From the NCBI GenBank assembly GCA_964016885.1, contig OZ024745.1:128154001-128218000 (forward strand): a stretch of 64,000 bases of DNA, in the 5' to 3' direction. The translations under genes and the position numbers were made by a program. This DNA is from Eledone cirrhosa (lineage: Eukaryota). This document shows, one piece after another, positions 5,747-58,410 of the stretch. The notes beneath the pieces are model-generated. The model saw nothing but the letters and a program-made list of their open reading frames with translations. It made no database searches and had not been told where the DNA came from. The stretch's first letter is position 1, and each line of letters opens with the position of its first letter.

Positions 5747-6590
5747 ACATACACATGGGCTGAACTTATAGTGATAGACACATACACATGGGCTGAACTT
5801 ATAGTGATAGACACATACCCATGGGCTGAACTTATAGTGATAGACACATACACATGGGCTGAACTTATAGTGATAGACACATACACATGGGCTGAACTTA
5901 TAGTGATAGACACATACCCATGGCCTGAACTTATAGTGATAGACACATACACATGGGCTGAACTTATAGTGATAGACACATACACATGGGCTGAACTTAT
6001 AGTGATAGACACATACACATGGGCTGAACTTATAGTGATAGACACATACACATGGGCTGAACTTATAGTGATAGACACATACCCATGGGCTGAACTTATA
6101 GTGATAGACACATACCCATGGGCTGAACTTATAGTGATAGACACATACACATGGGCTGAACTTATAGTGATAGACACATACACATGGGCTGAACTTATAG
6201 TGATAGACACATACACATGGGCTGAACTTATAGTGATAGACACATACACATGGGCTGAACTTATAGTGATAGACACATACACATGGCCTGAACTTATAGT
6301 GATAGACACATACCCATGGGCTGAACTTATAGTGATAGACACATACACATGGCCTGAACTTATAGTGATAGACACCTACCCATGGGCTGAACTTATAGTG
6401 ATAGACACATACACATGGGCTGAACTTATAGTGATAGACACATACACATGGGCTGAACTTATAGTGATAGACACATACCCATGGGCTGAACTTATAGTGA
6501 TAGACACATACCCATGGGCTGAACTTATAGTGATAGACACATACACATGGGCTGAACTTATAGTGATAGACACATACACATGGGCTGAAC
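5747..6590. repeat. 33-bp minisatellite, ~25.5 copies
   Basis: Unit acatacacatgggctgaacttatagtgatagac with a few recurring variants (acc/aca, ggc/gcc). No spacers between units. Confidence 0.97.
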
Positions 6591-18803: not shown

Positions 18804-18900
<97 letters not shown>

Positions 18901-19068
18901 TATATATATATTGGAATAAATGCTCTGAAATAGCGATATATATGTGAATATAGACATAGAATATTCGAAAATATTCTGTATGTTTATAATAAACATTTTG
19001 AAGACCTAATCGCTATAGAATAGAATACGTCACGTATTACAATTAGATTCTCGATAAAAGCAAGGGAA

Positions 19069-19111
19069 GTAATCTACGCGTTTCATTCTTGTTAGAAATC
19101 ATCAGGACTAC
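19069..19111 (-). ncRNA. Minimal type-I hammerhead ribozyme (310-bp unit, copy 1)
   Basis: Reverse complement of 19791-19833. Confidence 0.85.
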
Positions 19112-19378
19112 ATATCCAGTGCTTTTATCGAGAATGACACAGCTAGAGACTTATAGAATACTTAGCTGTGTACAGGAACTGGTTTGAAAGAGCGGTTGCC
19201 GGTCCGGCAGAAATTAGAAATTGGAATAAATGCTCTGAAATAGCGATATATATGTGAATATAGACATAGAATATTCGAAAATATTCTGTATGTTTATAAT
19301 AAACATTTTGAAGACCTAATCGCTATAGAATAGAATACGTCACGTATTACAATTAGATTCTCGATAAAAGCAAGGGAA

Positions 19379-19421
19379 GTAATCTACGCGTTTCATTCTT
19401 GTTAGAAATCATCAGGACTAC
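19379..19421 (-). ncRNA. Minimal type-I hammerhead ribozyme (310-bp unit, copy 2)
   Basis: Reverse complement of 19791-19833. Confidence 0.85.
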
Positions 19422-19790
19422 ATATCCAGTGCTTTTATCGAGAATGACACAGCTAGAGACTTATAGAATACTTAGCTGTGTACAGGAACTGGTTTGAAAG
19501 AGCGGTTGCCGGTCCGGCAGAAATTAGAATGCTTTTATCGAGAATCTAATTGTAATACGTGACGTATTCTATTCTATAGCGATTAGGTCTTCAAAATGTT
19601 TATTATAAACATACAGAATATTTTCGAATATTCTATGTCTATATTCACATATATATCGCTATTTCAGAGCATTTATTCCAATTTCTAATTTCTGCCGGAC
19701 CGGCAACCGCTCTTTCAAACCAGTTCCTGTACACAGCTAAGTATTCTATAAGTCTCTAGCTGTGTCATTCTCGATAAAAGCACTGGATAT

Positions 19791-19833
19791 GTAGTCCTGA
19801 TGATTTCTAACAAGAATGAAACGCGTAGATTAC
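19791..19833 (+). ncRNA. Minimal type-I hammerhead ribozyme (310-bp unit, copy 3)
   Basis: guaguc-CUGAUGA-uuucu(aaca)agaau-GAAA-CGCG-UA^gauuac. Stem I is extended by the perfect 16-bp pair auucucgauaaaagca/ugcuuuuaucgagaau. Confidence 0.88.
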
Positions 19834-20100
19834 TTCCCTTGCTTTTATCGAGAATCTAATTGTAATACGTGACGTATTCTATTCTATAGCGATTAGGTCT
19901 TCAAAATGTTTATTATAAACATACAGAATATTTTCGAATATTCTATGTCTATATTCACATATATATCGCTATTTCAGAGCATTTATTCCAATTTCTAATT
20001 TCTGCCGGACCGGCAACCGCTCTTTCAAACCAGTTCCTGTACACAGCTAAGTATTCTATAAGTCTCTAGCTGTGTCATTCTCGATAAAAGCACTGGATAT

Positions 20101-20143
20101 GTAGTCCTGATGATTTCTAACAAGAATGAAACGTGTAGATTAC
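20101..20143 (+). ncRNA. Minimal type-I hammerhead ribozyme (310-bp unit, copy 4, CGUG variant)
   Basis: Same as copy 3 except that stem III is CGUG. Confidence 0.8.
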
Positions 20144-20305
20144 TTCCCTTGCTTTTATCGAGAATCTAATTGTAATACGTGACGTATTCTATTCTATAGC
20201 GATTAGGTCTTCAAAATGTTTATTATAAACATACAGAATATTTTCGAATATTCTATGTCTATATTCATATATATATATATTTATATATATATACATATAT
20301 ATATA

Positions 20306-20378
<73 letters not shown>

Positions 20379-20960: not shown

Positions 20961-20970
<10 letters not shown>

Positions 20971-21268
20971 GCTTTAGGGGGGGTCATGTTGCCAATAAGA
21001 AACACACGCACCAGTTGGTTTCACTTCAATTTATTATAAATTAAGTTTATAAATTCAGGAATTTCCCCAGTCACTGAAGAGGTCACAGAATTTGTGACGA
21101 AAGAACTTTGACAATATATGAACAATCGTCTGGTTGTGGAACCAACCAGGCAACCGGAAATTTATAAATTCCTAAATTTATTAATTTAATTTATAATAAA
21201 TTGAAGTGAAATCAACTGGTGCGTGTGTTTCTTATTGGCAACATGACCCTCCCAAAGCATAACAATAT
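20961..21268. repeat. Inverted repeat (~100-bp arms) enclosing a hammerhead
   Basis: ggtcatgttgccaataagaaacacacgcaccagttg / caactggtgcgtgtgtttcttattggcaacatgacc. Confidence 0.9.
21070..21112 (+). ncRNA. Hammerhead ribozyme-like motif
   Basis: guca-CUGAAGA-g-gucaca(gaauu)ugugac-GAAA-GAAC-UU^ugac. One extra G, and the stem III palindrome is imperfect. Confidence 0.6.
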
Positions 21269-58211: not shown

Positions 58212-58410
58212 AGTATCGTTATACGAATAAGTATCGTTATACGAATAAGTATCGTTATACGAATAAGTATCGTTATACGAATAAGTATCGTTATACGAAT
58301 AAGTATCGTTATACGAATAAGTATCGTTATACGAATAAGTATCGTTATACGAATAAGTATCGTTATACGAATAAGTATCGTTATACGAATAAGTATCGTT
58401 ATACGAATAA
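58212..58410. repeat. 18-bp minisatellite, 11 perfect copies
   Basis: Unit agtatcgttatacgaata with an internal dyad tcgt-tat-acga. Confidence 0.97.

What the first reader, a model, noticed from the sequence alone, without database searches (positions are those of the whole stretch)
18910..20270. 310-bp hammerhead-bearing tandem element: candidate retrozyme / circular-RNA retroelement
Seen: about 4.4 near-identical 310-bp units; the only substitution I spotted is CGCG>CGTG. Each unit has one HHR, guaguc-CUGAUGA-stem II-GAAA-CGCG-UA^gauuac. The unit has no credible protein-coding ORF and is full of hairpins: a 16-bp stem-I extension, acacagcta/tagctgtgt, aatacgtgacgtatt, gaatatt-ttcg-aatattc and tagcgat/atcgcta. 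The left arm (18910-19529) is exactly 620 bp, or two units, and is circularly permuted relative to the cleavage site. The right arm begins 12 nt downstream of the predicted cleavage site. Known: minimal type-I HHRs with a palindromic stem III occur in Penelope-like element pLTRs and in metazoan non-LTR retrozymes, cleave as dimers, and can release monomers that circularise. Inference: this is a young non-autonomous element whose transcript self-processes into 310-nt linear or circular RNAs and is copied by a Penelope-type RT into (TA)n.
Basis: partly seen in the sequence, partly recalled or inferred. Interest (0 to 1): 0.92.

Follow-up and report, generated by a model that had tools for sequence, protein, structure and literature searches.

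The report
Penelope-copied ribozyme circle with two arms
This is one of over a thousand copies of a small ribozyme-bearing parasite of Penelope retrotransposons, and its back-to-back arms of repeats suggest that two reverse transcriptases each copied one RNA circle round and round, a long-proposed but untested way for such elements to spread.

Summary
The repeat is real but is not a plain tandem array. Two 310-bp units lie on the minus strand and 2.4 on the plus strand, back to back inside (TA)n. The genome holds at least about 1,200 such insertions. Ribozyme pairs are divergent in 391 places and convergent in 0. Of 53 elements with both ends readable, 52 end once at unit position about 130 (A) and once at about 165 (B); none has A+A or B+B, and no end at the ribozyme site joins (TA)n. 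This 35-nt offset is the Penelope (PLE) 'tail', and RT+GIY-YIG PLEs of this genome show the same layout. Locus-private variants are fixed in all units of both arms, while unit-specific variants are not shared (0 of 46). Best reading: a non-LTR retrozyme whose monomeric RNA circle is copied by a PLE dimer priming twice on a cut (TA)n target, with rolling-circle reverse transcription of both arms (about 0.7). Fixed variants lean A>G (editing or structure selection). Expression, cleavage, circularity and the exact partner PLE are not shown. Retrozymes are known; this footprint of their mobilisation was not found in eight literature searches.

The parts
18807..18909 (.). Left (TA)n target tract
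18910..19529 (-). Left arm: 2.0 units, ribozyme-sense on minus strand; RNA 3' end outward at 18910 = 'B' end (unit position 165); 5' start at unit position 166
18910..18944 (-). 35-nt 'tail' (unit 131-165) by which the B arm outruns the A arm
   Evidence: tail defined in PMC8557442 and PMC11167929
19069..19111 (-). Type I hammerhead motif, copy 1
19379..19421 (-). Type I hammerhead motif, copy 2
19529..19530 (.). Inversion junction where the two 5' ends meet; blunt here, 1-8 bp overlap in 52 of 62 insert-free junctions
19530..20267 (+). Right arm: 2.4 units; 5' start at unit position 13; RNA 3' end outward at 20267 = 'A' end (unit position 130)
19767..19855 (+). 16-bp helix (19767-19782 with 19840-19855) enclosing the ribozyme; a 12-bp helix of other sequence sits at the same place in the sister family
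19791..19833 (+). Type I hammerhead motif, copy 3: helix I 6 bp, core, helix II 4 bp above a U.U pair, palindromic helix III; predicted cut 19827|19828
20101..20143 (+). Type I hammerhead motif, copy 4, with C>T at 20134 in the palindrome
20268..20378 (.). Right (TA)n target tract

Best explanation
A non-autonomous retrozyme mobilised in trans by an endonuclease-bearing Penelope-like element. Inferred cycle: an array is transcribed, dimeric hammerheads release 310-nt monomers, and a host ligase closes them. A PLE RT-endonuclease dimer binds the circle near unit positions 130-165 and cuts both strands of a (TA)n tract. Each target 3' end primes reverse transcription at one of two fixed sites (A or B) on the same circle. 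Both enzymes run round it several times. The two cDNAs are joined at their far ends by microhomology, giving two divergent multi-unit arms. Shown by sequence: polarity, one A plus one B end, TA target, one template sequence for both arms, random stop points, exact joints at the ribozyme site, same layout in autonomous PLEs. Inferred: transcription, cleavage, ligation, the dimer, and which PLE family acts.
For: Polarity: 391 divergent against 0 convergent ribozyme pairs at gaps of 20-330. Ends: 52 of 53 elements with both ends readable have one A and one B end, 0 A+A, 0 B+B, 1 odd; in lists not selected for a junction, 61 of 61 divergent neighbour pairs are A+B, with 69 of 191 ends unpaired. 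Genome-wide 1,191 A ends, 1,220 B ends, 0 cleavage-site ends on TA. 10 of 12 elements taken from the first ribozyme hits have two arms; one of the others runs into an assembly gap. Autonomous RT+GIY-YIG elements show inverted arms in (TA)n with one arm longer, by about 14-66 nt in six families read by eye; L147 has both arms longer than its 4,211-bp unit. In vitro, a PLE predicted to be a dimer cuts and extends both strands and starts at two internal sites that bound the tail (PMC11167929). One template: 19 fixed private-variant events apart from the common 295A>G and the diverged L179, 17 seen in both arms, no variant fixed in two or more units of one arm only; about 11.5 expected if source monomers carry today's singleton load. 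0 of 46 testable unit-specific variants shared at equal distance from the 3' ends, about 19 expected for one linear multimer with today's load. 651 of 651 joints across the ribozyme site have exact length. Microhomology of 2 bp or more in 38 of 62 insert-free junctions against 18% by chance. Direct flanking repeats in 7 of 53 loci against 0.8% of random pairs. A sister family about 75% identical ends at the homologous A and B positions.
Against: No RNA evidence was obtained. The ribozyme has U.U at 10.1/11.1 where G-C is described as highly conserved; in vitro only 1 of 9 Xenopus retrozyme dimers cleaved, and a lizard PLE inserted without ribozyme cleavage, using unprocessed RNA. Seven variants are mosaic within an element, two of them in both arms (L034, L065), so post-insertion exchange or non-monomer templates occur at times. 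The expected 19 shared variants assume source arrays had today's load; at a quarter load P(0)=0.008. The partner is not pinned: best tail match L130 p=0.006 end-anchored and 0.016 extended among 7 families, L146 p=0.066, and the sister family matched none; blastn found no similarity of the unit to L130, L146 or L147. The window and L074 have inverted, not direct, flank matches. Most fetched loci were chosen for having a junction, all from contig C1.
Confidence: 0.7

Rival explanations
1. Same PLE twin initiation, but on a linear, uncleaved multimeric RNA (a read-through of a uniform array, or a concatemer made by RNA-to-RNA copying); the ribozyme is weak or idle.
For: Non-canonical 10.1/11.1 pair; PLE insertion in vitro did not need ribozyme cleavage; exact joints at the ribozyme site fit uncleaved RNA equally well; two variants appear in single units of both arms.
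Against: 0 of 46 unit-specific variants shared in register; private variants fixed in up to 24 of 24 units need a one-unit bottleneck; 5' ends show no template end.
Confidence: 0.15
2. Short PLE-type insertions came first and the arrays grew afterwards in DNA by unequal crossover and gene conversion, as proposed for vertebrate retrozymes.
For: Proposed in bioRxiv 10.64898/2026.07.22.740005; 7 mosaic variants, one pair repeated 7 units apart; the sister and third families are mostly not multimeric among listed hits.
Against: Both inverted arms are multimeric and share private variants; singleton divergence is only 0.04% per base over 680 units; arms of one unit or less would have no tandem seed; the 4.2-kb autonomous element also has both arms above unit length.
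Confidence: 0.07
3. The inverted arm arises by fold-back self-priming, a model proposed for Penelope in a rotifer.
For: Proposed from palindromic junctions in PMC3846280 (passages); it would also make the arms share variants.
Against: 5' starts of the two arms are unrelated (within 15 nt in 6 of 87, 8.7 expected at random); 0 of 40 testable variants are mirrored; it does not explain the fixed A+B ends.
Confidence: 0.03
4. A cleaved linear monomer is copied repeatedly by template jumping, telomerase-like, without ligation.
For: PLE RTs are telomerase relatives; helix I would hold the two RNA ends together.
Against: 651 of 651 joints have exact length with only 6 substitutions nearby; jumping usually leaves indels (own knowledge).
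Confidence: 0.04
5. Assembly artefact or DNA-only satellite with a chance ribozyme-like motif.
For: Rfam matches are below threshold; no RNA run was listed.
Against: Over 1,200 dispersed loci with strict polarity and fixed ends; A end joined to TA also in run X2; core and helix II kept with two double changes in the sister family.
Confidence: 0.01

Closest known systems
Metazoan non-LTR retrozymes (PMC7229834, passages and Discussion read; PMC7761336, passages; bioRxiv 10.64898/2026.07.22.740005, parts 1-3 of 5 read)
   Same: Short low-GC non-coding unit with one type I hammerhead per unit, multimeric copies, self-paired RNA, co-occurrence with PLEs; circular template copied into tandem cDNA is their proposed model.
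   Different: They are described as head-to-tail repeats; 'inverted' has 0 hits in PMC7229834 and only a reference hit in the preprint and the review, 'tail' 0 hits in the preprint. Here nearly every sampled insertion has two divergent arms, fixed A and B ends and a (TA)n target. The review says no motif reveals the helper; here the tail does. Circular RNA was shown for those, not here.
Endonuclease-bearing Penelope-like elements, Neptune-type zinc motif (PMC8557442 and PMC3846280 passages; PMC11167929 parts 1-2 of 4)
   Same: Partial tandem plus inverted 5'-truncated copy, 30-40 bp tail on one end, microsatellite targets, two internal initiation sites, hammerhead in the repeat.
   Different: No ORF; unit 310 bp; up to 19 units per arm, which exposes template identity; the tail is not optional but on exactly one end in 52 of 53; no long sequence homology to a PLE pLTR was found among 50 fetched PLE loci.
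Non-autonomous Chlamys elements such as MRC1 (PMC8557442 passage)
   Same: Non-autonomous PLE passengers with multicopy head-to-tail insertions.
   Different: [quoted passage not shown]
L1 twin priming (recalled, no call)
   Same: Inverted arm, both target ends prime, microhomology at the junction.
   Different: L1 primes first at a poly(A) end and second at a variable internal site; here both sites are fixed and both arms exceed template unit length.

Membership tests
Metazoan non-LTR retrozyme | Tandem units of about 150-450 bp, low GC, no protein coding | tested here: met
   310 bp, 34% GC, longest stop-free frame 59 aa
Metazoan non-LTR retrozyme | One type I hammerhead motif per unit | tested here: met
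   Core, helix I 6 bp, helix II 4 bp, palindromic helix III; double hammerhead is the co-fold minimum; Rfam only sub-threshold
Metazoan non-LTR retrozyme | Dispersed, high copy number, no LTR/PBS/PPT layout | tested here: met
   4,217 exact hits of one variant; about 1,200 or more insertions; ends are A/B sites, not terminal repeats; PBS and PPT were not searched separately
Metazoan non-LTR retrozyme | Self-cleavage of the transcript | not testable with these tools
   Needs an in vitro assay
Metazoan non-LTR retrozyme | Accumulates as linear and circular monomer RNA | tested here: inconclusive
   No RNA holder listed; genomic variant pattern is indirect support
Canonical hammerhead ribozyme | G10.1-C11.1 pair closing helix II | tested here: not met
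   U.U in the unit, also in the sister family and in the young PLE family L131/L146; described as highly conserved
PLE-mobilised insertion | Inverted 5'-truncated copy joined head to head | tested here: met
   391 against 0; 10 of 12 unselected elements
PLE-mobilised insertion | 30-40 bp tail on one end, from two internal initiation sites | tested here: met
   A at 123-139, B at 163-172; 52 of 53
PLE-mobilised insertion | AT-rich or microsatellite target | tested here: met
   118 of 125 readable ends
PLE-mobilised insertion | Homology to the pLTR of an identified autonomous partner | tested here: inconclusive
   Weak tail similarity to L130 only; no blastn match
Autonomous PLE | ORF with RT and GIY-YIG endonuclease | tested here: not met
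   No ORF in the unit; such ORFs exist elsewhere in the genome

The most novel reading that the evidence does not exclude
Each insertion records two reverse transcriptases of one PLE dimer copying a single ribozyme RNA circle by double rolling-circle target priming, and A-to-I edits made on that circle are written into every unit of the new array, so RNA editing drives heritable change in this replicon. Fixed variants: A>G 9 and T>C 1 of 26 distinct substitutions; singletons: A>G 3 and T>C 14 of 73 (Fisher p=0.0002; p=0.0016 without L179 and site 295). 20A>G occurs on both 295 backgrounds. Selection for structure-neutral G.U pairs is not excluded: 8 of 9 sites pair with U.
Probability: 0.3. 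Interest if true: 0.87.

Novelty: new variant of a known kind. Interest (0 to 1): 0.73.

Why it matters
Two open questions meet here: which enzyme moves animal retrozymes and from what template, and how Penelope elements make their inverted arms and tail. The papers read give co-occurrence, pLTR homology and a proposed circular template, and an in vitro finding of two start sites. This family supplies over a thousand very young insertions in which the two start sites are used one per arm, on one template sequence, for many rounds. It names a 310-nt substrate, two start positions and candidate enzymes, so a direct biochemical test is possible. A processive RT pair that writes multi-kilobase concatemers of an RNA circle into (TA)n would also interest retroelement engineers.

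Tried and rejected
DNA search of the own genome returned nothing because common words are skipped; patterns were used instead. Rfam: no match near threshold. Run search: no RNA holder listed. Laying four runs gave contigs only: X1, X3 and X6 each hold one 340-base cyclic contig of the unit at depth 10-15, X2 holds 541; a cyclic contig arises from tandem DNA too, so it says nothing on circular RNA. L099 first looked like a PLE carrying the unit in its pLTR; it is a sister retrozyme inserted in TA beside a PLE end. Partner search by blastn and a two-sequence profile over fetched PLE loci found no pLTR homology; these are 50 loci of 150 scored and 10,596 candidate GIY-YIG places, and the L128 window probably missed that family's tail. 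Column-wise pair check of the long helix failed because the alignment shifts the sister by one column; the sister's own strands are a perfect 12-bp complement. The 620-bp arm and 12-nt offset were rejected as chance. Earlier scan findings: none. PMC5785218 is not held; only its title was seen. The host was not determined; the closest named relatives of the L130 protein are bivalve proteins at 53-65%; that the microsatellite load resembles octopod genomes is recalled and untested.

Full report
Observation. Mapping shows two arms in opposite orientation: 18910-19529 holds 2.0 units on the minus strand and 19530-20267 holds 2.4 units on the plus strand, each running outward into (TA)n. The units are identical except C>T at 20134. 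There are four hammerhead motifs; Rfam gives all four only sub-threshold HH9 matches. No stop-free frame exceeds 59 aa. Unit positions below count from the base after the predicted cut (window 19828 = 1).

The family. An exact 32-mer from the ribozyme has 4,217 hits in the 3.0-Gb genome; it misses the 295G variant, fixed in 49 of 90 sampled elements. Divergent ribozyme pairs number 391 and convergent pairs 0 at gaps of 20-330; 482 further hits at 331-500 overlap those loci in part. So RNA-sense 3' ends always point outward. I mapped 90 elements (the window, L031-L042, L058-L097, L148-L183; all but the window from contig C1, most chosen for a junction). Of the 12 taken simply from the first ribozyme hits, 10 have two arms, one runs into an assembly gap and one (L037) is single-armed. 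Outer ends fall in two clusters, A at 123-139 and B at 163-172. Of 53 two-armed elements with both ends readable, 52 have one A and one B, none A+A or B+B, and one (L179, a diverged copy) fits neither; 34 more had an end cut off by the fetch or a gap. Genome-wide there are 1,191 exact A ends and 1,220 exact B ends on TA, and 0 ends at the ribozyme cut. Among the first listed ends, 61 of 61 divergent neighbours are A+B and 69 of 191 ends had no listed partner. 118 of 125 readable ends abut TA. 5' starts are flat, 2 of 177 near the cut. Junction overlaps of 2 bp or more occur in 38 of 62 insert-free junctions against 18% by chance; 25 of 87 junctions have inserted bases. Direct flanking repeats were readable in 7 of 53 loci against 0.8% of random pairs; 2 loci, the window among them, had inverted matches instead.

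Link to Penelope. An inverted 5'-truncated copy and a 30-40 bp tail on one end are described PLE hallmarks (PMC8557442 passages; PMC3846280 passages). PMC11167929 (parts 1-2 of 4 read) reports that a purified PLE protein, predicted to be a dimer, cuts and extends both strands of AT-rich DNA and starts at two internal sites that bound the tail. This genome has many GIY-YIG places (150 scored of 10,596 candidates). Ten frames were scanned: RT and GIY-YIG together in 4, RT only in 2, GIY-YIG only in 4. Four of six C-termini matched a Cys motif before the GIY-YIG core like that described for Neptune and Nematis. Their insertions show inverted arms in (TA)n with one arm longer. L147 has two arms each longer than its 4,211-bp unit. 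The partner is open. L130 (1,096 stop-free codons; family 93-99% identical) has a 38-nt tail whose two ends align with A and B (p=0.006, then 0.016 with extension, best of 7 families). The L131/L146 family is as young as the retrozyme and shares the U.U pair and a palindromic helix III, but its tail match is p=0.066.

Template. Over 680 units there are 87 singleton variants (0.04% per base), 7 mosaic variants, and 19 fixed private events apart from 295A>G and L179; 17 of the 19 were seen in both arms, some at low coverage, the strongest at 24 of 24 units. None of 46 testable unit-specific variants is shared in register from the 3' ends, where one linear multimer with today's load would give about 19; a monomer source predicts about 11.5 fixed events. 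Fold-back is unlikely: 5' starts are unrelated and 0 of 40 variants are mirrored. All 651 joints across the ribozyme site have exact length, against template jumping. A covalently closed monomer fits all of this; a perfectly uniform linear concatemer cannot be excluded.

Ribozyme. Helix I has 6 bp, helix II 4 bp, and helix III forms only between two copies; the double hammerhead is the co-fold minimum. The usual G10.1-C11.1 pair (PMC4209133 passages) is U.U. A sister family about 75% identical keeps the core, changes helix II with two double changes in three comparable pairs, has its own 12-bp enclosing helix, and ends at the homologous A and B positions. Activity is untested, and published results warn against assuming it.

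Variant spectrum. Fixed substitutions lean A>G on the ribozyme strand (9 against 1 T>C, of 26; L179 contributes 12 of the 26 by the list), singletons lean T>C (14 against 3, of 73). The contrast holds without L179 and site 295 (p=0.0016). Strand asymmetry supports an RNA step. A-to-I editing would explain it, and 20A>G sits on both 295 backgrounds, but 8 of 9 sites pair with U, so selection for tolerated G.U pairs fits too. Positions inside the search patterns were constrained by selection of loci.

Novelty. Non-LTR retrozymes, their circular RNAs and the guess that PLEs move them are published (PMC7229834; PMC7761336; PMC4209133; preprint 10.64898/2026.07.22.740005, which favours later local amplification). 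Eight searches listed no paper describing retrozyme insertions with two divergent multimeric arms, paired A and B ends or a shared template; the library lacks most subscription journals and supplements were not read. Verdict: a new variant of a known kind, whose interest is that it turns two proposed mechanisms into precise tests. Interest 0.73; best explanation 0.7.

Noticed in passing
L146 (G000:C4:322583800-322590600), L147, L131, L135, L140: A very young PLE family (unit 4,211 bp, copies 99.6-99.96% identical) has two overlapping frames of 476 and 775 codons instead of the single ORF described for PLEs. The overlap is in the -1 frame with two in-frame slippery heptamers, the first kept in all five loci checked; no strong downstream hairpin. 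Possible programmed frameshift.
   Followed up: partly
L143:4131-4325, L137:7506-7704, L133, L061, L066: A third non-autonomous family with nearly the same helix II as the unit: 8,362 exact hits, short inverted arms in (TA)n with a tail of about 65 nt, no tandem spacing among the first 100 listed hits; forward and reverse counts are unequal, 5,124 against 3,238.
   Followed up: partly
L099:2439-2871, L184, L185: Sister retrozyme family, period about 320, about 75% identical to the unit, 65 exact hits of its ribozyme, same A and B ends, mostly short arms.
   Followed up: yes
L179:523-1520: Diverged subfamily copy, 12 substitutions and one insertion fixed against the unit; its left end is not on TA.
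   Followed up: partly
L074: Both flanks read outward as the same 60 or more bases, the end of the L144-type PLE, so the element sits between two converging PLE ends.
   Followed up: no
L034-L035 (G000:C1:43583262-43593778): Two independent insertions 1.1 kb apart, one with a 308-bp unit in all 22 copies; two variants recur 7 units apart in its long arm.
   Followed up: partly
runs X1, X3, X6: Three runs under three other organism labels each hold the unit as one 340-base cyclic contig, 100% identical, depth 10-15, without flanks or variants. Trace host DNA is the simplest reading; the kind of library is not on record.
   Followed up: no
window 5747-6590 and 58212-58410: Unrelated near-perfect minisatellites, 33 bp x 25.6 and 18 bp x 11.1.
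   Followed up: no
window 20965-21200: Start of another repeat also seen in L143:4480-4890 as an inverted-repeat element in TA.
   Followed up: no
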